IMG/VR virus record: IMGVR_UViG_3300031414_000001
Location: 304,437-368,436 of that record
Reading direction: 5' to 3' (one strand)
Source of the DNA: a virus
Lineage: Duplodnaviria > Heunggongvirae > Uroviricota > Caudoviricetes
DNA length: 64,000 bases
This document shows positions 36,145 through 50,556 of the stretch, piece after piece. The translations under genes and the position numbers were made by a program. Within the stretch, counting starts at the first letter, position 1. The number at the start of each line of letters is the position of its first letter. The notes under the pieces were generated by a model. That model saw only the letters and a program-made list of their open reading frames with translations. It was not told the origin of the DNA and did not search any database.

Positions 36145-36208
36145 TAGAATCTATTATTTTGGGTTTTCAAGATAAGTGAAATAAAATAGTGTTTGCTGTT
36201 AGATTCTA
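36145..36208 (-). ncRNA. CAGCAA-stem element, minimal
   Basis: TAGAATCTA/TAGATTCTA stem, ACAGCAAAC bulge, TTTCA-7nt-TGAAA hairpin. Confidence 0.75.
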
Positions 36209-36214
36209 AATTTG

Positions 36215-36541
36215 TTATTTGGTCTTAAGTTCTGCTACTACAGCAGCAACTAAGTCCGGTGTAAAATCAATGCCGAAAACTTCGGAATAATGTTTTACTG
36301 TACCTTCATAACCATGACGCTTTTCATTCAAGCGATAACGCAATTCCATAATCGCATTGTCATAGTTAAACCAAGGATTGTTTTGACTCGCATTCAAGCG
36401 ACCCCAATCAGTCAATGGTACGAAACCTTCATCAGCAGACTTACCCCGAAGAATATTATAGATAATATGCTCGTGTACAGTGTGCTCTTTTTCCAGTTTC
36501 CAGGTTGTTTTTACAGTAATGAATTGTTCTTTGGTCAACAT
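36215..36541 (-). CDS. hypothetical protein
   Basis: ORF with AAGGA RBS. Confidence 0.8.
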   Translation of the reverse strand: MLTKEQFITVKTTWKLEKEHTVHEHIIYNILRGKSADEGFVPLTDWGRLNASQNNPWFNYDNAIMELRYRLNEKRHGYEGTVKHYSEVFGIDFTPDLVAAVVAELKTK

Positions 36542-36660
36542 AGTATGTTCCTTTTGGATAGTAATTAATTTAGTGTTTTGTTCTGAATTAACTTTATCCG
36601 GTGGACCAGTACTGAATTTCTATAGCATCATAAGATTTACCTTTTGTTTGTTTATGTTAG

Positions 36661-36742
36661 AGCGGGATACAGGATTTGAACCTGCGTAAACTATTCGCCG
36701 CCTGCTTGGAAGGCAGGTGCTCTACCACTGAGCTAATCCCGC
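36661..36742 (-). tRNA. trnG: tRNA-Gly(UCC) with 15-nt variable region
   Basis: cloverleaf GCGGGAT/ATCCCGC, U73, anticodon TCC. Confidence 0.85.
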
Positions 36743-36890
36743 TAGGATGTACTGCCGCTCTCAGTACTGTATATACTTGATTATTACAATCTGACCTATA
36801 CAGGTGCATCGCGGTTCTCGTCATATAATTTTACAAGCTGGGAGAATCATTCAAGCTTGTTTCACACAGGAAGTAATGAAATCTTTAAAT

Positions 36891-36965
36891 TGGCAGGCCG
36901 GAGAGGGTTCGAACCTCTGATCCGAGAATCAAAATCTCGTGTGTTACCAATTACACCACCAGCCT
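36891..36965 (-). tRNA. trnQ: tRNA-Gln(UUG)
   Basis: cloverleaf with G73-CCA. Confidence 0.93.
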
Positions 36966-36969
36966 AATC

Positions 36970-37015
36970 AAGAATCTATATATTATTCAACCGTTTTACT
37001 TGCTGGAAGATTCTT
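36970..37015 (-). ncRNA. CAGCAA-stem element, minimal (46 nt)
   Basis: AAGAATCT/AGATTCTT stem with CAGCAA. Confidence 0.65.
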
Positions 37016-37062
37016 TGTAATATTTGGATTACATATTATTAAACCATCCAAATATCACTTTG

Positions 37063-37134
37063 CGGTAAAGGGGAATTTCGAAATCCCGACCATCTCCTTA
37101 ACAGGGAGCCGCTCTGCCTCTGAGCTACAATACC
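37063..37134 (-). tRNA. trnN: tRNA-Asn(GUU), mismatched acceptor stem
   Basis: anticodon loop CTGTTAA; two U.U pairs in acceptor stem. Confidence 0.75.
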
Positions 37135-37208
37135 AAGTTGTTGTTTTTCTTACTTATATTATACCACATTTTTTAGTGGCGTTTCATCTTTTTTTCAAAG
37201 AAATAGGC

Positions 37209-37270
37209 TGGAATCCATTTTGATTTTTCAATTAACAGTTGATTTCATTTATGGTTGCTGCTGGATTCCA
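37209..37270 (-). ncRNA. CAGCAA-stem element with Asn-like anticodon loop
   Basis: TGGAATCCA/TGGATTCCA; TCAA-CTGTTAA-TTGA. Confidence 0.75.
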
Positions 37271-37294
37271 AATTCGGTTTTATTCAATTAAAGC

Positions 37295-37349
37295 TAGAAT
37301 CTATTTTTGTTTTCTATATCCGAGAAGTTTTAATTGCTGGTAGATTCTA
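37295..37349 (-). ncRNA. CAGCAA-stem element, minimal
   Basis: TAGAATCTA/TAGATTCTA; TTCT-CGGATAT-AGAA. Confidence 0.75.
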
Positions 37350-37473
37350 AATGAGTACAAATTGAGTTTACAGAAGTCCTTCCAAGGGACTAATACGTAT
37401 TCTATTCTGACCTTAGTAGGATAACATGCTATCCGTGTCACACCATAGTACGCCTGGTGAATTTGATTAATAC

Positions 37474-37588
37474 TGGAATTTATTTCGTTTTAGGCGGCTG
37501 CTCTCCCAACTGAGCTACAGTACTAGTACTGACAGGACTCGAACCTGCGACATGCTGCGTGATAGAAAGTGTTTGCTGTTAAATTCCA
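37474..37588 (-). ncRNA. circularly permuted tRNA-like RNA (YrlA/Y-RNA-like) with CAGCAA stem
   Basis: order T arm, acceptor 3' strand CAGTACT, acceptor 5' strand AGTACTG, D arm, all enclosed by TGGAATTTA/TAAATTCCA. Confidence 0.85.
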
Positions 37589-37605
37589 AATTTGTTACTA
37601 ACGCA

Positions 37606-37746
37606 TTAACGTTTAGGTTGATGCGGGTTGTTACGATTCAAAGTTTCATAACTATGATCGTTACGGCGTGAATGATGTGGATTATTACGATTCAACGTTT
37701 CGTAACTATGGTCATTGCGTTTTGAACTATGAGCATTGCCTGACAT
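37606..37746 (-). CDS. 46-aa peptide with 18-aa tandem repeat
   Basis: RNDHSYETLNRNNPH twice; synonymous differences between DNA copies; AAGGTG RBS. Confidence 0.65.
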   Translation of the reverse strand: MSGNAHSSKRNDHSYETLNRNNPHHSRRNDHSYETLNRNNPHQPKR

Positions 37747-37756
37747 ATTATCACCT

Positions 37757-38017
37757 TTATAGTTGAAGGTAAGGATTATAGTTCGGATCACTGAATATGT
37801 CGTACTCTTTATGTTTACCATCCACAATAGTGTAGAAAGTAAAATTGACAGAGTTATATGATTTACGGTCATCTTCTAAGTATATTGAAGTACTAGAACC
37901 ACCGATATTCACACGATTCACAACATAATAATGATCAGAATCTAACGCTAATGCGTTTATTCTATCACTTTCGTAACCAGCGTTAAGCTCAGTTACTTTA
38001 GCATATAAAATATCCAT
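37757..38017 (-). CDS. hypothetical protein
   Basis: ORF. Confidence 0.75.
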   Translation of the reverse strand: MDILYAKVTELNAGYESDRINALALDSDHYYVVNRVNIGGSSTSIYLEDDRKSYNSVNFTFYTIVDGKHKEYDIFSDPNYNPYLQL

Positions 38018-38035
38018 ATCTTACCTAATTAATAC

Positions 38036-38171
38036 AAGAATTCATCGTTTATTGGATAGCCGTGTCTACCAGTTTCACCATCACTATTCGTACTGACATA
38101 GTTCGTAGGACTCGAACCTACACGCCATAAGGCCGCTATTTGGGTTAACATTTAGTTGCTGTTGAATTCTT
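38036..38171 (-). ncRNA. circularly permuted Leu-type tRNA-like RNA with CAGCAA stem
   Basis: ATAGC + long variable arm GCC-TTAT-GGC + T arm, closed acceptor, Leu-type D arm, GCTAT; ends AAGAATTCA/TGAATTCTT. Confidence 0.8.
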
Positions 38172-38257
38172 TAAGTTCTTGTTGTAGTACGTTATAGGCT
38201 TACTGATTCATCCAAAGTGCTACCTATTGTGTTGGATAATTTCACAGTACTACTTAG

Positions 38258-38330
38258 TGGGAATAGCTGGACTCGAACCAGCGGCGACTCGATTATCGGT
38301 CGAGCATTCTACCAACTGAATTATATTCCC
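38258..38330 (-). tRNA. trnI: tRNA-Ile(GAU)
   Basis: cloverleaf; loop CC-GAT-AA (C33). Confidence 0.9.
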
Positions 38331-38342
38331 ATATAATGCCTG

Positions 38343-38579
38343 TTACCAGGCATAATCACCAGTGCCGATGTAACAAGCTTTGTTACAATGACCACTCATG
38401 GCATCAAGTACATCGTTAAGTTCTTCGATACGTGGATCATCATCTTCCATGTCAAAGAACACATAAGTCAGTGCTTGATATAAATCAATGTTATTTGAAC
38501 GTTCATTTGAATCAACAAATTTACGAACAGCTTCGTGCATATTAGCACTATTCAGGATTTCATCTACGATGGTTTCCAT
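38343..38579 (-). CDS. hypothetical protein
   Basis: ATG 38579; C-terminal SGHC...IG motif. Confidence 0.7.
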   Translation of the reverse strand: METIVDEILNSANMHEAVRKFVDSNERSNNIDLYQALTYVFFDMEDDDPRIEELNDVLDAMSGHCNKACYIGTGDYAW

Positions 38580-38583
38580 AGTA

Positions 38584-39042
38584 TCACCTACAAGGATATG
38601 GTACAATGTTATGATGTTCTCTAAGAAATTCTATGCTATGATTAACTTTCATCATATCTTCGAAGTACTTAACGAACTCGCGTAACCGTGTTACAAATTC
38701 GTAACTGAACGGAACTTCTTTTAACGTACTTAATTGGAAGTGCCATTCCTCACTTATACTGTAAGGAAAACCATTGACTTTGAATAAATCTTCATCGTCT
38801 TCATCCCAATAATGTACGTTGAACCTGTTTGATAACAAGTCAACTACTATTGAAAGGGTGTTATCCTTTTCGTCCGACAAATAAAAATGGATTATCCCAT
38901 CTCGTGAAGAATAATGATCATTGTCATTAAAAACCACAGTATTAGATAATCCATTAATATTCGATCTACATCGTTCCGGTACATGTAATAACGAAATGAG
39001 ATATTCTTCTCCAATTTCGTACAACACATCGTATTTGCTCAT
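38584..39042 (-). CDS. hypothetical protein, EExxFQxxT family
   Basis: SEEWHFQLSTLKE. Confidence 0.75.
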   Translation of the reverse strand: MSKYDVLYEIGEEYLISLLHVPERCRSNINGLSNTVVFNDNDHYSSRDGIIHFYLSDEKDNTLSIVVDLLSNRFNVHYWDEDDEDLFKVNGFPYSISEEWHFQLSTLKEVPFSYEFVTRLREFVKYFEDMMKVNHSIEFLREHHNIVPYPCR

Positions 39043-39273
39043 TTAGAATGAATCCGGTTTTGCTACGCTCCGTACTGCCGACATGAAACCTTTTTGGAGG
39101 TCAGTCTTGGCAATCGCCAGCCAACGTTTATCAATATCAGGATGATCTTCAAGTGCTTCGATCATATCTCCGACTTTAGCAGCTAAGTCCTTAATTGCGT
39201 TCATCGCATTAATTTCTTGCTGATTAAGATCTCGATACCCTTTAATTTGTTTGTGTTGATTATCCATAATCAT
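39043..39273 (-). CDS. acb2: Acb2/Vs.4-like anti-CBASS cyclic-nucleotide sponge
   Basis: MDNQHKQIKGYRDL...MNAIK...RWLAIAKTDLQKGFM..VR.VAKPDSF matches the recalled Acb2 hairpin sequence. Confidence 0.9.
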   Translation of the reverse strand: MIMDNQHKQIKGYRDLNQQEINAMNAIKDLAAKVGDMIEALEDHPDIDKRWLAIAKTDLQKGFMSAVRSVAKPDSF

Positions 39274-39291
39274 TATCTCTCAATTAAATGC

Positions 39292-39349
39292 TGGAATCCA
39301 CAAGGTCAAAGTAAAAGTTTGATTTTTGTGTGGTTGCTGGAGGATTCCA
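39292..39349 (-). ncRNA. CAGCAA-stem element with Lys-like anticodon loop
   Basis: TGGAATCC/GGATTCCA; TCAAA-CTTTTAC-TTTGA. Confidence 0.75.
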
Positions 39350-39355
39350 AATTCT

Positions 39356-39571
39356 TTATTCTACGTAGCCGATAAAGCCAACGTGTTCTTTAACAGTACT
39401 TTTCTTCTTGGTTTCTTCGTCATGAACTTCACGTTCAAAAACTACTGGTTCCAATAGAACAACTGCTTTTTGTGCTCCGAAGATATTGCTAACTTGTTCG
39501 TCATTCAATTCTTCAGCACTAGTATGACGACGCAAAGCACCATCTACTTTGTAGTAGTAATCGTAAAACAT
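39356..39571 (-). CDS. hypothetical protein
   Basis: ORF. Confidence 0.7.
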   Translation of the reverse strand: MFYDYYYKVDGALRRHTSAEELNDEQVSNIFGAQKAVVLLEPVVFEREVHDEETKKKSTVKEHVGFIGYVE

Positions 39572-39590
39572 TTTTTCTTCCTTGTGTGAT

Positions 39591-39687
39591 TGGCGGTAAA
39601 GAGAGGATTTGAACCTCCGAGGCTAGGGATTACCTAACCTGGCCGCTTTCCAGGCGACTGCATTAAGCCAAGCTCTGCCACTTTACC
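39591..39687 (-). tRNA. trnS: tRNA-Ser(GGA)
   Basis: class II cloverleaf, G73-CCA. Confidence 0.95.
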
Positions 39688-39744
39688 ATGTTCGTTGTAT
39701 GGCTTCAACTTTATTTAGTAATTTTAAACACTAAATTAAAAAGC

Positions 39745-39804
39745 TAGAATCTATAATCTTTGTTTTCACCAATTGAATAAGAGTATGTTTGCTGTTAGAT
39801 TCTA
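39745..39804 (-). ncRNA. CAGCAA-stem element, minimal
   Basis: TAGAATCTA/TAGATTCTA, ACAGCAAAC, TGAAAAC. Confidence 0.75.
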
Positions 39805-39806
39805 TG

Positions 39807-39928
39807 CGAGAAAGGTTGGACTCGAACCAACGACCAGGCCATTAAAAGTGGATGAAGTATGGTTGCTGAGAAATTACAGTACTGTAATTTTGGGTTTCTA
39901 CCTGCTCTACCAACTGAGCTACTTTCTC
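39807..39928 (-). tRNA. tRNA(UUU)-like gene with 49-nt CAGCAA insertion in anticodon stem
   Basis: removing the insert restores GGCCA-CTTTTAA-TGGCC and a 73-nt cloverleaf. Confidence 0.75.
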
Positions 39929-39939
39929 ATAAATTTTTA

Positions 39940-40015
39940 GGGGCAAGGAATGGAGTTGAACCATTTCCAGGATCAGTGGCATCTCCAGTGTTTTATCACT
40001 CAGAAGACAATGCCC
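39940..40015 (-). pseudogene. degenerate tRNA-like sequence
   Basis: T arm AATGG-TTCAACT-CCATT, GGGCA/TGCCC ends, non-canonical D and anticodon arms. Confidence 0.45.
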
Positions 40016-40118
40016 ATTGGGTAATTAAGTTCCTCAAGCCTCTACTAAGTTATAGTTCCCTATAGATGAATATAACGTTCGCTTTCTGCGGCCTCTAATG
40101 TGCCTATCCTTAATTACT

Positions 40119-40209
40119 TGGAGGAAGATGTGGGATTCGAACCCACGGAGGGCTATTAACCCCCTCTAGTTTTCAAGACTAGTGCAATCGGCCTCTCTGC
40201 CAATCTTCC
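40119..40209 (-). tRNA. trnS: tRNA-Ser(UGA)
   Basis: class II cloverleaf with CCA, anticodon TGA. Confidence 0.93.
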
Positions 40210-40239
40210 AAAAAAGTACTTCACAGTACTTTGTACGCT

Positions 40240-40395
40240 GGATTCTCTATTAATTGAGCAACTACCTAGCACGGCTCAATATAACTAATTATTATCTCCC
40301 TAGTTACCAGGTGGACACGAAGGGAGTTTTACGTCCGAGTATCCAATCTCATTATTTGATAGATTTTAAGATTTTATGTGTTGCTGTCAGAATCC
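40240..40395 (-). ncRNA. CAGCAA-stem element with large non-tRNA distal domain
   Basis: GGATTCT/AGAATCC stem, ACAGCAAC, internal CTCCCT/AGGGAG and ATTGAGC/GCTCAAT helices. Confidence 0.6.
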
Positions 40396-40423
40396 GAGTG
40401 CTAATTCGGTTTTAATTAAAAAC

Positions 40424-40529
40424 AAGAATCGTTGTTTTCTATCCCCACAACCAGTGGTAAATCGGAATTGAACCGAAGGTGTTTTTCGCCAAATGAAATA
40501 TAAAGAGTTATGTTTGCTGGACGATTCTT
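40424..40529 (-). ncRNA. permuted tRNA-like RNA lacking D arm, CAGCAA stem
   Basis: AAGAATCGT/ACGATTCTT; T arm TTCGG-TTCAATT-CCGAT; closed acceptor hairpin. Confidence 0.7.
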
Positions 40530-40533
40530 TTAG

Positions 40534-40604
40534 CGTTCCCAACGAGGTTCGAACTCGTGTTGCCTGAGTGAAAGTCAGGTATCCTACCGCTAGATGATGG
40601 GAAC
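40534..40604 (-). tRNA. trnE: tRNA-Glu(UUC)
   Basis: cloverleaf, anticodon TTC, G73. Confidence 0.95.
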
Positions 40605-40606
40605 AA

Positions 40607-40771
40607 TTATTGTTTATCAGGCTCTTTCAATGTCCATTCGGTACTTTTCTCTGTACTTTTGGTCACTTCAAAACCTAATTCGGACATTACTTCAGGTAGG
40701 TTATTGTTATTGTTATCAATACCACTCAGGATACGACGAACAATTACCATGTTTTCTTCTGCTGATGCCAT
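40607..40771 (-). CDS. small hypothetical protein
   Basis: start corrected to ATG 40771 (AAGGA RBS). Confidence 0.65.
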   Translation of the reverse strand: MASAEENMVIVRRILSGIDNNNNNLPEVMSELGFEVTKSTEKSTEWTLKEPDKQ

Positions 40772-40796
40772 TTTGTTATCCTTTATTGAAGGAACT

Positions 40797-40913
40797 GAAA
40801 TCTTTGTTTTTCTGGACCCAATCACAGCCTACATAGCAACAAGGCTGCTGCGGATTCGAACCGCACCGTTTTTTTCGCATAAAAAATAATTGTTTTATTT
40901 GCTGTAAGATTTC
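40797..40913 (-). ncRNA. permuted tRNA-like RNA, CAGCAA stem
   Basis: GAAATCTT/AAGATTTC; T arm TGCGG-TTCGAAT-CCGCA; closed CAGCCT/AGGCTG. Confidence 0.7.
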
Positions 40914-40960
40914 GTGTTGCTAATACTTTTATTATACCACAAATTTTTGATTCGTTTCAT

Positions 40961-41440
40961 TTATTTTTGAAGAATTTTCAAGTACTCACCGTACCAGTAT
41001 TCAGTACCGTGACCATATCGTTTCTTCAACATAAAGCACAATTCATCTACATTTGAATGGTATTTCATGAATTCTAATACATGAATATTATCACAATTTC
41101 GTTCAGTACTGGAAAGTTTCAAGGGTTCAGTGGAAATTGCTTCACAATGATGTGAACCAATTTCTTGTACAATGTTTTTCCAGCATGATGAATCATGGTC
41201 ATGTGTTGGATCAATTTCATTAGCCAACGCATGAGCAATTTCATGTAAAATTATACTACGAACATCACGATAGATAACTGATTTTGCTACAAAGCTATCT
41301 AACGATATTATCTTTTCCGAAGATTGACAATATCCTAAAACGCGGGTTTCACCCTTTATGATTTTATCATGGAGCTTAAATTTCCAATCATATAAACCAT
41401 GCTTATTCATATAATGATAAGCCATTTTATATATGTTCAT
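40961..41440 (-). CDS. SprT-like zinc metalloprotease
   Basis: LGYCQ...IILHEIAHAL...H...WK. Confidence 0.8.
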   Translation of the reverse strand: MNIYKMAYHYMNKHGLYDWKFKLHDKIIKGETRVLGYCQSSEKIISLDSFVAKSVIYRDVRSIILHEIAHALANEIDPTHDHDSSCWKNIVQEIGSHHCEAISTEPLKLSSTERNCDNIHVLEFMKYHSNVDELCFMLKKRYGHGTEYWYGEYLKILQK

Positions 41441-41463
41441 AACTAATCTCTTAATTAAGATCA

Positions 41464-41585
41464 GGAATCTTGTTTTATCCAGCACCAAGCTCCCACTATT
41501 TGAATAAGGCATATGTTCGTGGGTGGGGATTCGAACCCCGTCGTTTCGTTTTCATCAAAAGGTTTATTTTTTGCTGTAAGATTCC
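41464..41585 (-). ncRNA. permuted tRNA-like RNA, CAGCAA stem
   Basis: GGAATCTT/AAGATTCC; GGGG-TTCGAAT-CCCC; CCCAC/GTGGG; mini D arm AGC-TTGGT-GCT. Confidence 0.75.
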
Positions 41586-41628
41586 GATGCCTTATGTTCT
41601 ATATTATACCAGAAATTTTTCTTCCGTT

Positions 41629-42724: not shown

Positions 42725-42760
42725 GATGTACCTCTTATTTAAAATAGGGCATTGCTGCCC

Positions 42761-43493: not shown

Positions 43494-43557
43494 GATACTG
43501 CTTCCCTATTACTTACTTAAAGATGCCACCAACATTGTTGGCGGCAATGGCTGGCAA

Positions 43558-44408: not shown

Positions 44409-44470
44409 TGGTATACCCTTTTAGCTCAATTAAAAAGGGGAACATAGTTCCCCTGTTACGTATTATGGTA

Positions 44471-46888
44471 TTACCACTCTACGCCTACACCAGCACCCCA
44501 CAGTACTTCAGATTGCGTGTTAGTACTGACAGACACTTTGGTAGTGACACTGTTAGTTACACGAGCACTGAATCCCACTGCTACTGCTTGTTCGCCATCG
44601 TAACCACCGATACCAGCACCTACTGAGAAGTTACCGTTCTGCGTTACTTGTGGGATGTTTGCCATCGCACCAGCACCAGCAATACCAGCACTTGCTACTT
44701 TACGGTTATCACCGATACGTTTATCAACATCAGCGAAACGCTTGTTAGTACTTTGTTCCAGATTGGATACACGACCTTCTACAGAACCAATACGTTGAGT
44801 ATTGCTGGTAATGCGTTGGTCATGTTGTACTAACGTAGCATCGTTAGAATCGATCCGGCTGGACAACTTCGCATCAGCAGATTTGCGTGACGCAGTTTCA
44901 CTTGCCAGTTCTTTCTTACTTGCTTTAGTTGCGATAACTTTATCCTGATTGGAATCAGTTACCGCCTGGTCAGCTTTGTTCTTGTCGATATTCGCTTTCA
45001 GGGCTTTATCCGCATTGGCACGAGTACTAGACTCAGTATCAATGTTCGCCTGAAGGTTTTTATCGGCGTTCTGACGTGACACTGTTTCATCAGCGAGTTC
45101 TTTCTTACTTGCCTTAGTATCAATAATCTTATCCTGATTAGAATCGGTTACTGCTTGGTCGGCTTTGTTCTGATCGATGTTCGCTTTCAGGGCATTGTCA
45201 CCAGCAATACGGTTATCAGTTTCAGTACTGAGATCCTTATCTTGTTTAGCGTCGGTTTTAGCCTGATCCGCTTTGTTCTGATCGATTTTGGCTTGTAACT
45301 GTTTATCAGCATCTTTGCGATCCGCAGTTTCTTTATTCAGGTCGGATTTATCAGCTTTAGTTACAGCAAGACCAACAATCGCAGTATCTTGAGCGGCATC
45401 ATGAATACCCTGTACCACTTTATCAACTGCGTAGGTAGATTTATCTACTTTACTGTCAATAGTAGCATTCTGCTTAGCGTCAGTTTTGGCTTGATCAGAT
45501 TTGTTCTGATCGATATTGTTCTTCAACGCAGTATCAGCATTCTGACGATCAGATACTTCTTTACTAATCGCAGCGTTTTGTTCGTTATCAGTACTGGCCT
45601 GGGCAGATACTGCTTTATTAATCTTGTCGTCAAGTGCTTTATCACCTTTGACACGATCCGCAGTTTCTTTGTTCAGATCGGATTTATCAGCTTTTGATAC
45701 TTCAAGGCCAATGATCGCACCATCTTGTAATGCGTCATGAATACCCTGAACAGCTTTATCGACAGCGTAGGTAGACTTATCTACTTTACCGTTAATAGCC
45801 TGATCTTGTTTGGCATCAGTTTTGACTTGATCCGCTTTGTTCTGATCGATATTGTTCTTCAACGCAGTATCGGCGGTAGCACGAATTTGGGCTTCAGAAT
45901 CAATATTGGATTGAAGTACTTTGTCAGCATCTTTACGTGCTGCTACTTCTTTATCCAGATCAACTTTGTCTGCTTTAGTTACAGCAAGACCAACAATCGC
46001 AGTATCCTGAACAGCATCCTGAACAGCTTGCTTCGCTTTATCAACAGAATACGTAGATTTATCTACCTTGCTATCAATTGCGGCATTTTGCTTCGCGTCG
46101 GTTTTAGCCTGATCCGCTTTGTTTTTATCAATGTTGGATTGAAGTACTTTGTCACCATTTTGGCGATCAGTTACTTCTTTATCCAATGCTGATTGGTCAG
46201 CTTTACCTGCGATAGCAGTATCTTGCTCTGCGTTTTTGGTTTCTACACCATCCAAACGTTCAGCATTGTTAATACTGCGAGTATCCGTTACTTCCAACTG
46301 TTTGTTAGTTTCACGAATAGCACCTTCTGTTGAATCGGCACGATGTTCCAGATCAGTAGCACGGTCATTAGCAGTTTGGGCTGCGTCTTGTACCGCATTG
46401 ATATGGTCATCTTGACCAGCATCGCGGGTTGCCTGAGTTTCTTTGTCAACCAGGTTAGAGGTATCGGCATTTTGACCATCTTTACCATCTACACCGTCAA
46501 CACCATCTTTGCCAGGATCACCTTTGTCACCCTTATCTCCTTTGTCGCCTTTATCACCCTTGTCACCTTTGGTTGGTGAAGTATTGCCACCACCAGTACT
46601 GATAGAGTTGTTAAAGTCGTTCAGGGACGAAGGAACATTACCAGATTTCAAAGAATCCAGCAAAGCTTTCGCTTCTTCTGCTGTACCGTTGAAACGGTTG
46701 TTGAACGTGGAAATGAAACGGGCTTCGTTCCAATTTCCGTTTTCTTTGGCGTTCATCAAGTCCTGAACAGCCGGACCCCATTGATCGCCAGATGATTTCA
46801 ACGATACGGCGGCGTTAGCCATATTAACCGTCATCGCAGATACCATTAAGGCTACTGCCAGCATAATCTTTTTCATTTTGTCACCCAA
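44471..46888 (-). CDS. YadA/Eib-like trimeric autotransporter adhesin
   Basis: signal peptide, collagen-like GDK repeat, coiled-coil stalk repeats, anchor SAGIAGAGAMANIPQV...GAGVGVEW. Confidence 0.9.
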   Translation of the reverse strand: MGDKMKKIMLAVALMVSAMTVNMANAAVSLKSSGDQWGPAVQDLMNAKENGNWNEARFISTFNNRFNGTAEEAKALLDSLKSGNVPSSLNDFNNSISTGGGNTSPTKGDKGDKGDKGDKGDKGDPGKDGVDGVDGKDGQNADTSNLVDKETQATRDAGQDDHINAVQDAAQTANDRATDLEHRADSTEGAIRETNKQLEVTDTRSINNAERLDGVETKNAEQDTAIAGKADQSALDKEVTDRQNGDKVLQSNIDKNKADQAKTDAKQNAAIDSKVDKSTYSVDKAKQAVQDAVQDTAIVGLAVTKADKVDLDKEVAARKDADKVLQSNIDSEAQIRATADTALKNNIDQNKADQVKTDAKQDQAINGKVDKSTYAVDKAVQGIHDALQDGAIIGLEVSKADKSDLNKETADRVKGDKALDDKINKAVSAQASTDNEQNAAISKEVSDRQNADTALKNNIDQNKSDQAKTDAKQNATIDSKVDKSTYAVDKVVQGIHDAAQDTAIVGLAVTKADKSDLNKETADRKDADKQLQAKIDQNKADQAKTDAKQDKDLSTETDNRIAGDNALKANIDQNKADQAVTDSNQDKIIDTKASKKELADETVSRQNADKNLQANIDTESSTRANADKALKANIDKNKADQAVTDSNQDKVIATKASKKELASETASRKSADAKLSSRIDSNDATLVQHDQRITSNTQRIGSVEGRVSNLEQSTNKRFADVDKRIGDNRKVASAGIAGAGAMANIPQVTQNGNFSVGAGIGGYDGEQAVAVGFSARVTNSVTTKVSVSTNTQSEVLWGAGVGVEW
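44900..46260 (-). repeat. internal stalk repeats of the autotransporter
   Basis: recurrent IDQNKADQAKTDAKQ and KVDKSTYAVDK units with near-identical DNA. Confidence 0.8.
46517..46572 (-). repeat. collagen-like (GDK)n repeat
   Basis: KGDKGDKGDKGDKGDKGDPGKDG. Confidence 0.85.
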
Positions 46889-46941
46889 AAGGTAATTGAA
46901 GTTTGAACTACATTTAGGCCGACTCGCTGGCCTTGAACAAC

Positions 46942-46970
46942 ATAATACAGTACTGAAACTATTCCGTCAA
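46942..46970 (-). promoter_or_regulatory. sigma70-type promoter of the autotransporter gene
   Basis: TTGACG-N17-TATTAT. Confidence 0.75.
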
Positions 46971-46991
46971 GGACTTTTTAGAATTATTTTG

Positions 46992-47076
46992 TGGGAATAG
47001 TCGGACTCGAACCGACACGCCATCTCTGGCGGGGGATTTTGAATCCCCTGCGTACTACCAATTTCGCCATATTCCC
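46992..47076 (-). tRNA. trnL: tRNA-Leu(CAA)
   Basis: class II cloverleaf, anticodon CAA. Confidence 0.95.
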
Positions 47077-47125
47077 AATTAAAAAGCCCTTTAATAAGGG
47101 CTTTTATTGTTAAAGATTTTTTTAA

Positions 47126-47500
47126 TTACACTACCTGGATCTTAGTGACGTGAAGACGTTCTGCTTCAATCGGGATACCCGTATGTTCAGATACGTATTC
47201 AGCCAGTTTAGGCAGAATCGCTTCTTCAGTCAGCGGACCGTTTGAGTAGTGATACAGACTCGCAGTGAACTTTTCAGAAGGTTCAGATACGAAGTTGTAC
47301 TCTACATACACAGTGCTAGTACCACTAGGGGCAGTACCTTCCGCTTCAGCAATGATCTCCTGAACCGTTTTGTACTTGCGGGTAGGAGCGATCCAGATAA
47401 TCACGGTGAGAGCACCAGCAAAGATTGCCAATGGAATCTGACCGAACGCGAACAGAAGAATAGTTACAGCGACTAACAGTACTTCGAAGAAATGTTTCAT
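47126..47500 (-). CDS. membrane-anchored hypothetical protein
   Basis: N-terminal TM pair. Confidence 0.75.
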   Translation of the reverse strand: MKHFFEVLLVAVTILLFAFGQIPLAIFAGALTVIIWIAPTRKYKTVQEIIAEAEGTAPSGTSTVYVEYNFVSEPSEKFTASLYHYSNGPLTEEAILPKLAEYVSEHTGIPIEAERLHVTKIQVV

Positions 47501-47714
47501 GTTTTTGTCCTATTAATTAGGTATTCAATTAAGCATCCAGTGATGAACACTCCGATGCCGACAACTGCGATTATAGCACTCTTTGTGACTACCGTCAACA
47601 ACGCAATGAGAATTACAATCGCGATTAGTATTTCGTAGAAGTATTTCATACCTCAACCCCCATATGATAGCGGAGTTTTGGCATTCTGTCAAGCGTTCCC
47701 GCTGTTTTTTTTAC

Positions 47715-48344
47715 TTAGTAACCTGAGACATTGAACATTGTACCGTTCTCGTCGAAGTACGTGACTTCATCAATACTGCCCTGGGCGGCAAATTGATTAT
47801 CACAGGTATGATCACCCTGACCTTCGAAACGGATTTCAACACCTTCAATTGTGAAGCGACATTGATAACCATCAACAACAATAGGAATCGCTGCTTCAGG
47901 AGCAATATTATCTTCACCGCTCGGTATTTCGTATTTAGTACCGTCACTTTCGATGATAATAACATCTTCGTTCGCTTCAACAACCGTACCGAACTTCATC
48001 TGACGTTCAACACTGTACTTGTGCTGTACTTCATTAACGAAGTGTAACTTAGTACCCACAATTGGAATACCAGTATCTTCATTGATGTTAGTATTGTTCC
48101 AGTCTTCATCGTTCATGATGAACGGTGCTGAATGATAGCCATCATCATCCATCCAATCCAGACCAGTACTGACACCTTCCATAATACGGGCAATCAGTTC
48201 TTCTTTGTTCTGAGATTCTGGAAGTTTAAAGTTGAACGTTTCGTTCGTGTAACCATCAGCATCACCATGCATGAATTCCAGTTTAACACGTAAGGTGTTT
48301 TTTGGATTAGCTGATGGTACTGCTGGAGTGAGTTTAACTGGCAT
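47715..48344 (-). CDS. hypothetical protein (MHGDAD family)
   Basis: KLEFMHGDADGY...VTYFDENG, paralog of 58300. Confidence 0.8.
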   Translation of the reverse strand: MPVKLTPAVPSANPKNTLRVKLEFMHGDADGYTNETFNFKLPESQNKEELIARIMEGVSTGLDWMDDDGYHSAPFIMNDEDWNNTNINEDTGIPIVGTKLHFVNEVQHKYSVERQMKFGTVVEANEDVIIIESDGTKYEIPSGEDNIAPEAAIPIVVDGYQCRFTIEGVEIRFEGQGDHTCDNQFAAQGSIDEVTYFDENGTMFNVSGY

Positions 48345-48618
48345 TCGGGAGTACCTTCTTCACGGAGTTAATTGTGCTTTCAACAACATTACCGATTACT
48401 TTGTCCAGTTTAGACATTTCACCAGATTCATAATGATACTTTGGTTTACCATCTTTACCGAGTACCGTGTAACGATCATAAGTCGTCGGATTGATAGACT
48501 TAGATGATTGTTCACGAGCAACAGCAGGGTCAACCATAGTTACACCCGTATGAGTGTAATCTTTCAGACTTTGTACTTTCTCTTTAAAGTACTTTTTCAG
48601 TTCTTCGACAATATACAT
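48334..48618 (-). CDS. hypothetical protein
   Basis: ORF. Confidence 0.75.
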   Translation of the reverse strand: MYIVEELKKYFKEKVQSLKDYTHTGVTMVDPAVAREQSSKSINPTTYDRYTVLGKDGKPKYHYESGEMSKLDKVIGNVVESTINSVKKVLPNAS

Positions 48619-48635
48619 AATATATCCTCAATAAG

Positions 48636-48752
48636 CGGTGAGTGCAGGAATCGAACCTACGGCTTCGGCGTGAAAGGCAATTGTATTGATTGCTGTTAGA
48701 TTCAGTACTGGAATCCATTTTTTACGCTATTTTACCACTAAACTAACTCACC
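48636..48752 (-). tRNA. tRNA(UUC)-like gene with 46-nt CAGCAA insertion
   Basis: acceptor GGTGAGT/ACTCACC G73; insert 48679-48724 = GATTC-CAGTACT-GAATC + ACAGCAA; loop CTTTCAC. Confidence 0.7.
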
Positions 48753-48758
48753 AGATTT

Positions 48759-49115
48759 TTAAGTGCGATTAGGACGTGAGTTTTTGATCAACTCAACACC
48801 CGCAGCAGTACAACGCTCAATCTGAGCATTATACAGTTTCTCTACAACGTCTTTATCAGAACTATGTAGATAGATTTGTTTCAGTTTCGGGAAAGCATTA
48901 CGCTTTAGACGGTGAGTAACCATCATAAGCAAATCAGCCCCCGTATGGGTACGATCACCCAGGAAGTTGTCGAAGTGAAGTACTTCAATTTCTTCATTGT
49001 TATGGAAGATGAAGTTCTTCGCTTCCCACCATTCTTTCAGCCAAACAATACCTTCGGCTTGTTCAGTACTGAGATGGTTCTCTGGATTACGAATATCGTC
49101 TACGTAAACTTTCAT
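48759..49115 (-). CDS. cyclic-phosphate-processing receiver-domain-like protein
   Basis: VYVDDIR...HFDNFLG...TGADL...LHSSD. Confidence 0.6.
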   Translation of the reverse strand: MKVYVDDIRNPENHLSTEQAEGIVWLKEWWEAKNFIFHNNEEIEVLHFDNFLGDRTHTGADLLMMVTHRLKRNAFPKLKQIYLHSSDKDVVEKLYNAQIERCTAAGVELIKNSRPNRT

Positions 49116-49507
49116 TAGTAGTTGTTCTCCTGACTATTATTAATCAGTTCAACACCAGCCGATGCCAGTTCTTCAGAATAGGTTTCAACCAGTTCTTCAA
49201 CCATATCCGAATCCGAGGAATGAAGATAGATCTGTTTCAGATTTACCCATTCTTCTTTCCCGCCCCACATACAATCACCAGCAACCATAAAGAACAAGTC
49301 TTTACCAGTTAGCGTTGGTTCATCCATGTAGTTATCGAAGTGGATCACTTCAATAGTGGCAGAATTTTCGATAAGGAAACGTTTTGCTTCCCACCATTCT
49401 TTGATCCAAACAATACCTTCAGCCTGTTCAGGCGTGAGATAACGTGCTGGATCACGAATGTCATCAATGTATACTTTGGTATTAGACATATTAGTGTCCA
49501 CCGTCAA
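49115..49507 (-). CDS. cyclic-phosphate-processing receiver-domain-like protein (paralog)
   Basis: VYIDDIR...HFDNYM...TGKDL...LHSSD. Confidence 0.6.
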   Translation of the reverse strand: MTVDTNMSNTKVYIDDIRDPARYLTPEQAEGIVWIKEWWEAKRFLIENSATIEVIHFDNYMDEPTLTGKDLFFMVAGDCMWGGKEEWVNLKQIYLHSSDSDMVEELVETYSEELASAGVELINNSQENNY

Positions 49508-49760
49508 CAGTTAAATGATGACCACCAGCCGTGGCAAGAAAGCGATCAGTACCGCAACCACGAGGATCAATATCAGAAACTTTGAAATCAGCTTCACCGA
49601 GATCTACGTAAGTAGTAGTTCCGAAAGTACGGTCAACCCGTAATTCATAAACATGGTCTTGCTGAAGTTCCTGAACACCATTAGCTGGATGTGACTCTGG
49701 AACGATGTGACCGATAATGATACCACCAGGCATAACCTGGATACGTGCTGTCATAGCCAT
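49491..49760 (-). CDS. hypothetical protein
   Basis: ORF downstream of promoter 49790-49818. Confidence 0.75.
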   Translation of the reverse strand: MAMTARIQVMPGGIIIGHIVPESHPANGVQELQQDHVYELRVDRTFGTTTYVDLGEADFKVSDIDPRGCGTDRFLATAGGHHLTVDGGH

Positions 49761-49829
49761 TTCTGTACCCTCATTGATTAAGAGATAGTACTATATCATA
49801 CCGCTTCGTTCCCGTCAAGGAAAATTTAG

Positions 49830-49906
49830 TGCAAGGGGATGGACTCGAACCATCGACACGGAGTTATACTAAGATAATCTTGCTCTACCGTCTGAGCTAC
49901 CCTTGC
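49830..49906 (-). pseudogene. tRNA with aberrant enlarged anticodon arm (TAG-like loop)
   Basis: perfect acceptor, D and T arms; 21 nt instead of 17 in the anticodon arm. Confidence 0.65.
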
Positions 49907-49912
49907 GAAACG

Positions 49913-50215
49913 TTATGAGTAATTCACATAACCGTCATATTTGATATTGATTGCTGGACGTAGGCCACCTTCTGGAATATTAAGGTAGCGATACAATTCA
50001 GGAACAGTTAGTTCGATTGTACGCATTACACTTTTGTTTTCCAGGATAGTACTAACATCATGTAATTCAATACCAACATGAAAATACGGATCTAACTCAG
50101 ATTTGAGTTGTTCAACCGCAGCTTCATCAGAAATGCGACTTTGGTTACAGAAGCGAACAATAGTATGCCAGCCTTCACCAGTTGCTGCGTATTCGAAAAA
50201 TAATACACTTTGCAT
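49913..50215 (-). CDS. hypothetical protein
   Basis: ATG 50215 after GAGG RBS. Confidence 0.7.
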   Translation of the reverse strand: MQSVLFFEYAATGEGWHTIVRFCNQSRISDEAAVEQLKSELDPYFHVGIELHDVSTILENKSVMRTIELTVPELYRYLNIPEGGLRPAINIKYDGYVNYS

Positions 50216-50216
50216 G

Positions 50217-50429
50217 TTATACCTCGACTTCTTCCAGATATTCCATTTCTTCATCACTGAAGAAACAACTATCAGAAACAGCTTTGCCATTTTTGGCGAT
50301 ATAGTAGAATCCATCTTCTTCGATTAATTCTACACCAGTAGTATTCAGTTCTGGAAAATGCTTAAGTAAGTCATCAGCACCGAATACTGTACTCATAAAA
50401 CCATCTAAATCTTTAATTTTAAATGTCAT
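50217..50429 (-). CDS. hypothetical protein
   Basis: ORF. Confidence 0.7.
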   Translation of the reverse strand: MTFKIKDLDGFMSTVFGADDLLKHFPELNTTGVELIEEDGFYYIAKNGKAVSDSCFFSDEEMEYLEEVEV

Positions 50430-50444
50430 ATGTATTCCAATTTG

Positions 50445-50556
50445 TAGAGAGGGCAGGATTCGAACCTGCGTTACGTTCGTATGAATGAAATTTATGGATG
50501 CCGTAAGATTCCATCTGGAATCGCTTTACGTGTCCTAGCCGCTAGACGACCTCTCT
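50445..50556 (-). tRNA. tRNA-like gene with 39-nt CAGCAA-variant insertion
   Basis: acceptor AGAGAGG/CCTCTCT; insert GATTCC-AGAT-GGAATC + ACGGCA; 8-nt loop ATTCATAC after excision. Confidence 0.65.

What the first reader, a model, noticed from the sequence alone, without database searches (positions are those of the whole stretch)
36145..50556. Family of 15 'CAGCAA-stem' RNAs that occur in three circularly permuted topologies
Seen in sequence: every member (minus strand) has a 5-9 bp helix built around GAAUC/GAUUC, an unpaired ACAGCAA(A)C right after its 5' strand, and usually a URRAAAC tract near the other strand. Six are minimal (36145, 36970, 37209, 37295, 39292, 39745). Five enclose a permuted tRNA (37474, 38036, 40424, 40797, 41464). 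One encloses another domain (40240). Three sit inside otherwise linear tRNAs (39807, 48636, 50445). Established: bacterial and phage YrlA Y RNAs are tRNA mimics with a closed acceptor stem and a Ro60-binding stem at the anticodon side; they are linked to RtcB RNA repair. Inference: this is a heavily expanded Y-RNA-like, tRNA-repair or decoy system in which CAGCAA is a protein-binding site. No Ro60/TROVE gene is recognisable in this window.
Basis: partly seen in the sequence, partly recalled or inferred. Interest (0 to 1): 0.93.

Follow-up and report, generated by a model that had tools for sequence, protein, structure and literature searches.

The report
Y-RNA-like tRNA mimics, shared handle
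A giant phage carries 15 small RNA genes, some shaped like tRNAs or tRNA anticodon arms, that share one stem-plus-CAGCAA "handle". The handle most likely docks them onto a Ro60-like ring protein encoded elsewhere in the genome, giving an undescribed viral version of the Ro60/Y-RNA particle tied to tRNA damage control.

Summary
All 15 elements lie at the stated places, all on the tRNA strand. Each has a 7-10 bp helix P1 (xGAAUCx/xGAUUCx), then NCAGCAANC (ACGGCAU at 50445), and usually an A-rich tract before the 3' strand. P1 covaries: 52 distinct copies from 10 Rak2-like phages, 93.7% paired, 62 double changes, 0/500 shuffles. The three topologies are true circular permutations.

The genome has no Pfam TROVE or RtcB gene. 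It does encode a 504-aa DUF2828/DUF7788 protein whose model matches only Ro60 structures over its full length, and an Rnl2-type RNA ligase gene lies just upstream of it. The same handle sits beside DUF2828 genes on the same strand in distant uncultured phages, in Salmonella phage FelixO1 and in a mycobacteriophage.

My reading: a Y-RNA-like family with a new handle and a divergent Ro60-like partner. Binding itself is inferred.

Removing the insert from the three interrupted tRNAs restores canonical anticodon arms, with compensatory changes across the insert, so a mini-intron reading remains a rival. Uninterrupted copies of the same tRNAs exist in every phage where enough of the tRNA region was read.

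This scan noted the same handle/DUF2828 pairing before on other DNA. I re-tested it here. I found no Rfam family or paper that describes it.

The parts
36144..36209 (-). Minimal handle RNA: P1 UUAGAAUCUA/UAGAUUCUAG, bulge ACAGCAAAC, A-rich tract
   Evidence: 76 bits
36970..37015 (-). Minimal handle RNA, 5 nt upstream of tRNA-Gln
   Evidence: (49 bits)
37208..37271 (-). Minimal handle RNA whose head is an Asn(GUU)-like anticodon stem-loop, UCAA-CUGUUAA-UUGA
   Evidence: (73.5 bits), 63: the head is identical in 8 copies from 7 phages
37294..37350 (-). Minimal handle RNA
   Evidence: (63.8 bits)
37473..37589 (-). Handle enclosing a complete permuted class I tRNA body: loop CUAUCAC, T arm, acceptor strands joined with no linker (CAGUACU|AGUACUG), D arm
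   Evidence: Rfam YrlA partial match at 37497-37555, 41.9 bits, model positions 24-84
38036..38171 (-). Handle enclosing a permuted class II (Leu-like) tRNA body with a closed acceptor stem
39291..39350 (-). Minimal handle RNA whose head is a Lys(UUU)-like anticodon stem-loop, UCAAA-CUUUUAC-UUUGA
   Evidence: (70.7 bits), 63: the stem is conserved in 9 copies from 8 phages
39745..39804 (-). Minimal handle RNA directly after the interrupted tRNA-Lys gene
   Evidence: (78 bits)
39807..39928 (-). tRNA-Lys(UUU) with a 49-nt hairpin-type handle (39852-39900) in the 5' strand of the anticodon stem, between positions 28 and 29
   Evidence: removing the insert gives GGCCA-CUUUUAA-UGGCC. Orthologs give CGAGC/GCUCG and CGACA/UGUCG.
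40240..40395 (-). Handle enclosing a ~140-nt non-tRNA domain; of the types traced, found in the most phages (all ten examined)
   Evidence: P1 and inner helices covary, ACAGCAA invariant in 10 phages
40424..40529 (-). Handle enclosing a T arm and a closed acceptor-like stem, with no D arm; lies directly after tRNA-Glu
   Evidence: 33.6 bits
40797..40913 (-). Handle enclosing a T arm and a closed acceptor stem; lies just downstream of a TGGTATAAT promoter-like sequence and forms the 5' leader of a 72-aa ORF
41464..41585 (-). Handle enclosing a T arm, a closed acceptor stem and a mini D arm; lies just downstream of a promoter-like sequence and is conserved in 7 phages
48636..48752 (-). Glu(UUC)-like tRNA with a 46-nt hairpin-type handle (48679-48724) after nucleotide 28
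50445..50556 (-). Glu-like tRNA with a 39-nt hairpin-type handle (50490-50528, variant box ACGGCAU) between positions 28 and 29; the anticodon loop has 8 nt
   Evidence: the same split CG|..|UUC-loop-GAACG in six phages
48759..49507 (-). Context: two paralogous cREC_REC genes (cyclic-phosphate processing receiver domain) directly upstream of the interrupted tRNA at 48636
   Evidence: PF20274, 47.9 and 32.3 bits

Best explanation
The CAGCAA stem is the constant 'handle' of a family of Y-RNA-like small RNAs. A terminal or hairpin helix P1 is followed by a single-stranded NCAGCAANC box and faced by an A-rich strand. This forms the docking site for the phage's Ro60-like ring protein (DUF2828+DUF7788, 504 aa), which is encoded about 127 kb before the window's start, just downstream of an Rnl2-type RNA ligase gene.

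On this handle the phage mounts variable 'heads' taken from tRNAs:
- bare anticodon stem-loops (Lys UUU-like, Asn GUU-like);
- acceptor/T-arm minihelices;
- whole permuted tRNA bodies with closed acceptor stems, which is the YrlA topology;
- whole linear tRNAs, with the handle grafted into the anticodon stem;
- one non-tRNA domain.

The resulting particles most likely work in tRNA damage control during infection. They would present tRNA-shaped baits or tethers that bring the Ro60-like ring together with tRNA-handling enzymes or with tRNA-directed host nucleases, much as bacterial Y RNAs tether Ro60 to PNPase.

Shown here: the RNA motif and its covariation, the Ro60 fold of the protein, and the recurrent same-strand neighbourhood of handle and gene in unrelated phages.

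Inferred: physical binding, and the repair or decoy role.
For: 1. The motif is real, is read on one strand only, and is confined to the tRNA cluster.

2. The genome encodes P0001, a DUF2828 (112.9 bits) plus DUF7788 (144.5 bits) protein. The family alignment keeps an invariant D303-x-S305-x-S307, which I read as a vWA MIDAS motif. The model has pLDDT 88.4. Its 13 best PDB matches are all Ro60/TROVE: Xenopus and human Ro60, Deinococcus Rsr, and Thermus phage phiLo Ro60. E-values run from 2e-9 to 4e-6, TM 0.38-0.58 (0.45 or more for 12 of the 13), ~500-580 aligned columns.

3. An RNA_ligase (PF09414) gene lies just upstream, about 440 nt away across a small ORF. This neighbourhood is kept in 8 of 8 Rak2-like loci.

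4. In 63 non-redundant distant viral contigs with a DUF2828 gene (41-47% identity):
- Helix+CAGCA candidates reach 0.30 per kb within 1 kb on the gene's strand, against 0.10 on the other strand and 0.13 further away (Poisson 5e-6).
- P1 strands of the RGRWU type occur in 15 of 36 near, same-strand hits against 4 of 118 elsewhere (p 5e-8).
- Model R1, built only from this window, gives 11 hits at E<=1. All 11 are on the gene's strand, and 7 end within 135 nt of the start codon.

5. Direct reading of other phages:
- L139 has three handle RNAs upstream of the gene. Two enclose permuted tRNA bodies whose acceptor stems are capped by GAAA, and one region scores 39 bits on Rfam YrlA.
- Mycobacterium phage Gabriela has three handle RNAs directly after its annotated 'Ro-like RNA binding protein', which is 31% identical to P0001.
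- Salmonella phage FelixO1 has at least four, scattered in the tRNA array directly after its homolog ORF86.

6. The architecture (a 5'-3' stem, a large bulge carrying a short conserved box, then a variable module) is that of Y RNAs (PMC4201824; PMC12135203).

7. In the six phages where ~40 kb was read, uninterrupted Lys UUU, Glu UUC, Asn GUU, Asp GUC and Tyr GUA tRNAs are all present. The handle-bearing look-alikes are therefore not needed for decoding.
Against: - No binding experiment or RNA data exist. The RNA-library contigs I laid were uninformative.
- In this genome the handle RNAs lie about 165 kb from the Ro60-like gene, not beside it. The link therefore rests on other phages.
- Handle detection in distant loci was crude, and the individual R1 hits there are weak (E 0.02-1).
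- The RNAs fail Rfam YrlA and lack the GNCGAA motif.
- The three interrupted tRNAs keep perfectly restorable anticodon arms, with compensatory changes across the insert, and their anticodons vary (UUC, UCA, 8-nt loops). That pattern is what one expects of real pre-tRNAs that get spliced.
- DUF2828 genes occur in 700 phage records. I did not test how many of those lack handle RNAs.
Confidence: 0.68

Rival explanations
1. The handle is a new kind of protein- or RNA-processed mini-intron or splice signal. In the three linear genes it would be cut out of the anticodon stem and the nick sealed, for example by the phage Rnl2- or Rnl1-type ligases, to give mature tRNAs. In the outer-type copies the same cuts would release the enclosed tRNA body or stem-loop as a circle, as in a permuted intron-exon arrangement or the permuted tRNA genes of Cyanidioschyzon. 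This rival can coexist with Ro60-like binding if that particle is itself the processing machine.
For: - Deleting the insert restores a canonical 5-bp stem and a 7-nt loop in every ortholog. Compensatory changes span the insert: GGCCA/UGGCC, CGAGC/GCUCG, CGACA/UGUCG for Lys, and CG|UUC..GAACG in six phages for the Glu-like gene.
- The Glu-like gene's anticodon loop evolves (UUC, UCA, 8-nt loops), as if it were used in decoding.
- After excision the junction would be a nick in a duplex, the preferred substrate of Rnl2-type ligases (my own knowledge).
- The genome has Rnl1- and Rnl2-type ligases, and cREC end-processing genes lie next to one interrupted tRNA.
Against: - There is no splicing endonuclease gene and no match to any known ribozyme or intron family at E<=10.
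- The distances from P1 to the would-be splice sites vary: 6-11 nt on the 5' side and 16-20 nt on the 3' side.
- Six minimal copies, and three bodies that lack an anticodon arm, would yield no useful exon. Yet they are conserved across genera, interiors included.
- In other phages the enclosed tRNA bodies have GAAA-capped acceptor stems that cannot become tRNA ends.
- Intact copies of the same tRNAs are always present where the tRNA region was read.
- The motif travels with a Ro60-like gene, not with a nuclease.
- A compensated anticodon stem is equally expected if an intact anticodon arm is needed as bait.
Confidence: 0.18
2. The handle is a processing, stability or translation-control element of the long early transcripts, read by a host factor such as an RNase or a chaperone. 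On this view it has no link to the Ro60-like protein, and the tRNA-like pieces are decaying tRNA genes.
For: - Several copies sit in 5' leaders between a promoter-like sequence and a ribosome-binding site (40797, 41464), or abut tRNAs (36970, 40424, 39745).
- A UUAAUURAG tract often follows P1.
Against: - The interiors and heads are conserved across genera and do not look like decaying genes.
- The same handle sits beside DUF2828 genes in phages of Actinobacteria, Enterobacteria and uncultured hosts, which share no host-specific factor.
- Many copies are not followed by an ORF.
Confidence: 0.08
3. The motif is a DNA-level element, such as a REP/MITE-like mobile inverted repeat or a protein-binding DNA site.
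For: - P1 arms such as UAGAAUCUA are near-palindromic and repeated.
- Copy number differs between relatives, from 2 to 12.
- One insert splits tRNA genes.
Against: - All copies in 10 phages lie on the transcribed tRNA strand.
- The arms covary as a helix rather than keeping one site sequence.
- The asymmetric CAGCAA box sits on one side only.
- There are no target-site duplications and no transposase.
- Reverse-strand scores of the model are at noise level, 11-14 bits.
Confidence: 0.03

Closest known systems
Bacterial and phage Y RNAs with Ro60/Rsr: YrlA/YrlB (Rfam RF02553; Chen et al. 2014, PMC4201824) and Yrl1/Yrl2 of Thermus phage phiLo (PMC12135203)
   Same: - Small RNAs built as a terminal 5'-3' stem, a bulge with a short conserved box, and a variable module.
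- The module is often a tRNA mimic with T and D arms and a closed acceptor stem.
- In many phages they are encoded on the same strand as a ring-shaped HEAT-repeat-plus-vWA protein (Ro60 fold).
- They are linked to RNA ligase and repair genes.
   Different: - The box is NCAGCAANC after an RGRWU-type helix, not GNCGAAN0-1G.
- The Rfam YrlA model is not matched at threshold.
- The partner belongs to Pfam DUF2828/DUF7788, not TROVE (~12% identity to Ro60).
- The neighbouring ligase is Rnl2-type, not RtcB.
- There are 15 copies with very diverse heads, including bare anticodon stem-loops and handles grafted into complete tRNAs.
- They sit in the tRNA array, far from the protein gene.
Disrupted tRNA genes of Archaea and of the red alga Cyanidioschyzon merolae: non-canonical bulge-helix-bulge (BHB) introns, split and permuted tRNA genes (reviewed in PMC4090602, PMC3400036)
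   Same: - Inserts lie at non-canonical positions in the anticodon stem.
- There are genes with the 3' half ahead of the 5' half.
- A helix joins the two ends.
- Precise removal would restore a canonical tRNA.
   Different: - I saw no bulge-helix-bulge geometry at the junctions, and there is no EndA-type endonuclease.
- The same module also stands alone without exons.
- Acceptor junctions have no linker, or a capped loop.
- The host is a bacterium.
The rsr-yrlA-rtcBA RNA repair operon, which responds to damaged tRNAs (PMC7790460), and T4-type tRNA repair by Pnkp/Rnl1
   Same: A Ro-type protein, tRNA-like RNAs, an RNA ligase and end-healing domains (cREC) occur together in one genome that also carries a large tRNA set.
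   Different: - The components are scattered over the genome.
- The ligase families differ.
- No regulator like RtcR is evident.
- The function here is untested.
Phage tRNA variants that neutralise tRNA-cutting defences: T5 tRNA-Lys/Thr/Asn against PARIS AriB (PMC11464382, PMC12409363) and phage tRNA-Thr against P2 OLD (PMC12445682)
   Same: The heads copy Lys(UUU) and Asn(GUU) anticodon arms, which are among the known AriB targets, as well as other NAN-decoding tRNAs.
   Different: - Those are ordinary functional tRNAs that replace cleaved host tRNAs.
- The RNAs here are non-decoding look-alikes on a protein-binding handle.
- A decoy role is only a hypothesis.

Membership tests
YrlA / Y RNA (Rfam RF02553) | Matches the Rfam covariance model at its gathering score (69 bits) | tested here: not met
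   No match at the gathering score. The best is a partial match at 37497-37555, 41.9 bits, model positions 24-84 of 114, which is the tRNA-like core only.
YrlA / Y RNA (Rfam RF02553) | A terminal 5'-3' stem encloses a tRNA-like module (T arm, D arm, closed acceptor stem) | tested here: met
   37473-37589, 38036-38171 and 41464-41585 have this layout. 40424 and 40797 lack the D arm, and the minimal copies lack the module.
YrlA / Y RNA (Rfam RF02553) | Ro60-binding motif GNCGAAN0-1G near the 5' end (PMC4201824) | tested here: not met
   The box after the 5' strand is NCAGCAANC in all copies. I saw no GNCGAA motif in them.
YrlA / Y RNA (Rfam RF02553) | Encoded within ~4 kb of the Ro60 gene on the same strand | tested here: not met
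   In this genome the Ro60-like gene is ~165 kb from the RNAs, and there is no handle RNA beside it. The feature is met for the homologous handle in other phages.
Ro60/TROVE protein partner | A protein with the Ro60 ring fold (HEAT repeats plus a vWA domain with MIDAS) in the genome | tested here: met
   The P0001 model has pLDDT 88.4 and its top 13 PDB hits are all Ro60. D303-x-S305-x-S307 is invariant across the family alignment. The Pfam TROVE model itself does not match.
Ro60/Y-RNA particle | The RNA physically binds the protein | not testable with these tools
   Needs EMSA, RIP or cryo-EM. Only gene neighbourhood is available.
Archaeal-type (bulge-helix-bulge, BHB) tRNA intron | Removing the insert restores a canonical tRNA | tested here: met
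   for all three window genes and their orthologs in up to six phages.
Archaeal-type (bulge-helix-bulge, BHB) tRNA intron | A bulge-helix-bulge motif at the splice sites and an EndA-family endonuclease | tested here: not met
   No PF01974 match in the genome. Both junctions lie at one point of one strand of the anticodon stem, and I saw no exon-intron helix.
Permuted tRNA gene (Cyanidioschyzon type) | The 3' half lies upstream of the 5' half, with termini joined by a helix | tested here: met
   37473-37589 and 38036-38171.
Permuted tRNA gene (Cyanidioschyzon type) | Processed through a circular intermediate into a functional tRNA | not testable with these tools
   No usable RNA data. 37473 has no discriminator base or linker at the acceptor junction. 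38036 gives no canonical anticodon loop on joining (by eye).
Known self-cleaving or self-splicing RNAs (hammerhead, twister, twister-sister, pistol, hatchet, hairpin, HDV-like, group I) | A match to the family's covariance model | tested here: not met
   No such family appears at E<=10 over 35900-41800 or at E<=5 over 41800-58500.
Retron non-coding RNA | A reverse transcriptase gene accompanies an inverted-repeat-flanked RNA with a priming G next to the stem | tested here: not met
   No RVT_1 match in the genome at E<=0.1.

The most novel reading that the evidence does not exclude
The handle-bearing genes are true substrates, not only baits. On this reading the Ro60-like ring, the neighbouring Rnl2-type ligase and the cREC end-processing proteins form a protein-based machine that cuts and rejoins tRNA. 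It would excise the handle from the three interrupted tRNAs by sealing a nick in the anticodon stem, and would release the outer-type heads as covalently closed tRNA or anticodon-arm circles. That would be the first enzymatic tRNA splicing and permuted-tRNA pathway in a virus of bacteria, and the first physiological role for Rnl2.
Probability: 0.12. Interest if true: 0.95.

Novelty: new variant of a known kind. Interest (0 to 1): 0.8.

Why it matters
Ro60 with its Y RNAs is a conserved but poorly understood RNA-surveillance particle. In bacteria only YrlA-type RNAs with TROVE-type Ro60 are described.

The data here point to a second, much more widespread viral version. The Ro60-like DUF2828 protein occurs in 700 isolated phage genomes, including FelixO1, KVP40, Listeria, Staphylococcus and Campylobacter phages and mycobacteriophages. 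Its apparent partner is an RNA family with a different docking box that has no Rfam entry.

This phage carries the most elaborate set I saw: 15 RNAs whose heads range from a bare anticodon arm to a whole tRNA.

The system is directly testable in cultured phages (GAP32, CBB, FelixO1, mycobacteriophages). It bears on a current question, namely how phages cope with the many host defences that cut tRNAs. It also explains why annotation pipelines call 'intron-containing' or pseudo tRNAs in these genomes.

Tried and rejected
- **RNA evidence.** I laid four RNA or possibly-RNA runs on 36000-50700. They are contigs only. The joints seen there are other organisms' tRNAs or a DNA-level indel (40959 to 41445). 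They give no information on splicing, transcript ends or expression.
- **Retron reading** (an AGC next to an inverted repeat). Rejected: there is no reverse transcriptase gene.
- **Known ribozymes or introns.** No Rfam match.
- **EndA-type splicing.** No such gene.
- **TROVE and RtcB.** Both are absent by Pfam.
- **PDB search by sequence with P0001.** It found nothing. Only the fold search shows the Ro60 likeness.
- **ARAGORN on brute-force deletion variants.** It was too permissive to rank excisions. I replaced it with an explicit stem-and-loop score.
- **My first helix+CAGCAA scans.** They were dominated by chance hits and had to be tightened.
- **Ideas from reading the sequence that found no support:** a hammerhead-like junction; an RNase P guide-like 3' tail; P1 plus box as a relic tRNA 3' end (it is 3 nt too short before the CCA-like ACCA, and most copies lack it); URRAAAC as a codon string for the heads (it is not conserved in the Lys-head copies); MazF ACA sites (not conserved).
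- **Ligase neighbourhood.** The ligase next to the DUF2828 gene is specific to the Rak2-like clade: 8 of 8 loci there against 1 of 72 distant loci. It is not a general feature of the family.

Full report
**Setting.** The window is bases 304437-368436 of a 370,971-bp phage record. Its nearest cultured relatives are Xanthomonas phage XbC2 and Erwinia phage Kaldavass. GAP32, CBB (Mimasvirus), fHe-Yen9-04 and BF (Eneladusvirus) are more distant. The window holds a long tRNA array, all on the minus strand, with 28 ARAGORN genes.

**Observation.**
- Each has a helix P1 of 7-10 bp centred on GAAUC/GAUUC.
- The P1 5' strand is followed by N-CAGCAA-N-C, often continued by A-W-A-A.
- The P1 3' strand is preceded by an A-rich run. 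One search gives a position table from 76 distinct copies.
- A covariance model built from the six minimal copies (A1/R1) finds them at 49-78 bits and the larger ones more weakly. It finds nothing comparable elsewhere in the window or in the whole genome, and reverse-strand scores are at noise level.
- The same model finds 6-10 copies in each of XbC2, Kaldavass, GAP32, fHe-Yen9-04 and BF, and 2-8 copies in CBB, XaC1, Munch and fENko-Kae01. They always lie in the tRNA region and on one strand.
- On the 56 aligned hits (52 distinct), P1 is 93.7% paired, with 62 double-change cells in 6 of 10 pairs. No shuffle in 500 reaches the covariation score, and sliding the partner by one column drops pairing to 45-54%.

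The element is therefore a real, strand-specific, base-paired RNA motif.

**Topologies.** The order A-rich tract, P1 3' strand, P1 5' strand, CAGCAA box is constant.
- In outer-type copies P1 closes the molecule and the variable part lies inside.
- In the three linear tRNA genes P1 is a capped hairpin, and the tRNA lies outside.

**Interrupted tRNAs.** An explicit search over all deletions shows that removing the insert restores a canonical anticodon arm.
- 39807-39928 becomes tRNA-Lys(UUU) with stem GGCCA/UGGCC. Its orthologs in GAP32 and BF give CGAGC/GCUCG and CGACA/UGUCG. These are compensatory changes that span the insert.
- 50445-50556 gives CG|UUC-loop-GAACG in six phages. The loop reads UUC, UCA, or has 8 nt.
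- 48636-48752 gives a Glu-like CUUUCAC loop.
- In all three window genes the insert follows nucleotide 28 of the gene.

This is the strongest argument for an intron-like reading, which I keep as a rival.

**Heads.**
- Two minimal families carry conserved anticodon-arm look-alikes. One is UCAAA-CUUUUAM-UUUGA (Lys UUU-like; 9 copies in 8 phages, one with a changed loop). The other is UCAA-CUGUUAA-UUGA (Asn GUU-like; 8 copies in 7 phages). Their flanks vary.
- 37473 encloses a full class I body, and 38036 a class II body.
- 40424, 40797 and 41464 keep the T arm and a closed acceptor stem.
- 40240 encloses a ~140-nt non-tRNA domain. Its handle and inner helices are conserved and covary in ten phages.

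**The partner.**
- Pfam TROVE and RtcB are absent.
- Rnl1- and Rnl2-type ligases are present.
- EndA and reverse transcriptase are absent.

Earlier notes of this scan, made on other genomes, claimed that a stem-plus-ACAGCA handle travels with a DUF2828 protein. I treated that as a lead and tested it here.
- The genome encodes a 504-aa DUF2828+DUF7788 protein at 176259-177773, minus strand.
- With a 32-sequence alignment it folds at pLDDT 88.4.
- Its 13 best PDB matches are all Ro60/TROVE proteins over the full length: Xenopus and human Ro60, Deinococcus Rsr, and Thermus phage phiLo Ro60. E-values run from 2e-9 to 4e-6. vWA domains alone follow only at E>1e-3.
- Upstream, about 440 nt away across a small ORF, lies the Rnl2-type ligase gene. 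This pairing is kept in all 8 Rak2-like loci, but in only 1 of 72 distant loci.
- No handle RNA lies beside the gene in this genome.

**Association in other phages.** I fetched 80 viral contigs that encode relatives of the protein. In the 63 non-redundant distant ones (41-47% identity):
- Helix+CAGCA candidates are three times denser within 1 kb on the gene's strand than on the opposite strand, and 2.4 times denser than further away.
- Those that carry the RGRWU-type P1 seen in this window are almost confined to that position: 15 of 36 against 4 of 118.
- Model R1, which has seen only this window, gives 11 hits at E<=1. All are on the gene's strand, and seven end within 135 nt of the start codon.

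Direct reading confirms the pattern.
- L139 has three handle RNAs upstream of the gene. Two enclose permuted tRNA bodies whose acceptor stems are capped by GAAA tetraloops. One region is a sub-threshold YrlA match at 39 bits.
- The protein family is in 700 isolated phage records.
- In Mycobacterium phage Gabriela, three handle RNAs follow the annotated 'Ro-like RNA binding protein'. One has a tRNA body with a CUGUUAA loop.
- In Salmonella phage FelixO1, at least four handle RNAs are scattered through the tRNA array directly after ORF86.
- Rfam YrlA matches none of these.

**Interpretation.** The layout of stem, bulge with a short conserved box, and variable and often tRNA-like module is the Y-RNA layout (PMC4201824; PMC12135203). 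The recurrent same-strand neighbour is a Ro60-fold protein. I conclude that the CAGCAA stem is most likely the docking handle of a Y-RNA-like family for this Ro60-like protein.

Every phage for which ~40 kb of the tRNA region was read also has intact Lys, Glu, Asn, Asp and Tyr tRNAs. The handle-bearing versions therefore look like non-decoding mimics.

The heads copy tRNAs that decode NAN codons. Published defence nucleases target several of these, for example PARIS AriB on Lys, Thr and Asn (PMC12409363). The genome also pairs the Ro-like gene with an RNA ligase, and has two cREC cyclic-phosphate domains beside one interrupted tRNA (the cREC role is as proposed in PMC7824862). A role in tRNA damage control, as a tether or a decoy, is therefore my best functional guess. 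It is inference only.

**What stays open.** Binding has not been shown. I could not get RNA ends or splicing status, because the public RNA runs that hold this DNA are kept as contigs only. The compensated anticodon stems fit either an intact bait arm or a spliced tRNA.

**Novelty.** I found no Rfam family and no paper that describes this handle or DUF2828 as a Ro60 relative. Database annotators do already call some homologs 'Ro-like' or 'RNA-binding protein', and Iyer et al. list ROT/TROVE proteins in a subset of jumbo phages (PMC7824862). This scan has reported the same pairing on other genomes. Those are AI notes, and I re-derived the evidence independently here. I rate the finding a new variant of a known kind: a Ro60/Y-RNA particle with a different protein family, a different RNA box and an unusually rich set of tRNA-derived heads.

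Noticed in passing
window 48759-49115 and 49115-49507 (-): Two adjacent paralogous genes with the cREC_REC domain (cyclic-phosphate processing receiver, PF20274) lie directly upstream of the interrupted Glu-like tRNA. They are candidate RNA end-healing factors.
   Followed up: partly
window 37519-37532, 39868-39878, 48702-48710 (-): The genome's highly iterated palindrome AGTACT sits at structurally special points of these RNAs. It forms the zero-linker acceptor junction CAGUACU|AGUACUG of 37473 and the P1 hairpin loops (CAGUACUG) of two interrupted tRNAs. It also flanks several ordinary tRNAs. I have no explanation.
   Followed up: no
window 50470-50489 (-) and orthologs: After the insert is removed, the Glu-like gene has an 8-nt anticodon loop (AUUCAUAC) here and in XbC2 and Kaldavass. 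GAP32 and BF have AUUUCAC (UUC), and fHe-Yen9-04 has AUUCAAC (UCA, which would read UGA). The phage also has an amber-suppressor-type tRNA (CUA, 56580-56653) and a gene that ARAGORN calls with a 4-base anticodon (49829-49906).
   Followed up: partly
window 40961-41512 (-): A SprT-like metalloprotease ORF lies between two handle RNAs. It is absent in XbC2 and Kaldavass. Metagenome contigs also skip it (joint 40959 to 41445), so this is a strain-level indel.
   Followed up: partly
window 37351-37472 (-) and 39929-40118 (-): Two ORF-free stretches of about 120 and 190 nt lie between handle RNAs and tRNAs. They have no Rfam match above noise and may be further small RNAs.
   Followed up: no
window 27461-27541 (-) and 56299-56407 (-): Rfam calls two extra tRNA-like genes (40.9 and 38.4 bits) that ARAGORN does not report. 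The second is 109 nt long, so it may carry an insert of another kind, since it has no CAGCAA box.
   Followed up: no
L147 (Salmonella phage FelixO1) 3700-4560; L146 (Mycobacterium phage Gabriela) 3460-3740: Well-known cultured phages carry unannotated handle RNAs next to their DUF2828/Ro-like genes. The FelixO1 copies use P1 AGACC../..GGUCUGG and sit between tRNA genes. Some overlap small annotated ORFs on the opposite strand.
   Followed up: partly
L092 1782-2124, L138 7711-8202, L139 5557-8346: In distant uncultured phages the DUF2828 gene lies within a few kb of a tmRNA gene (one of them permuted) or of a large tRNA array.
   Followed up: no
window 41629-42051 (-): A 140-aa ORF with a P-loop N-terminus (weak AAA_33 match, E 0.005) lies directly upstream of the promoter-like sequence that precedes handle RNA 41464. 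It may be a small nucleotide or polynucleotide kinase.
   Followed up: no
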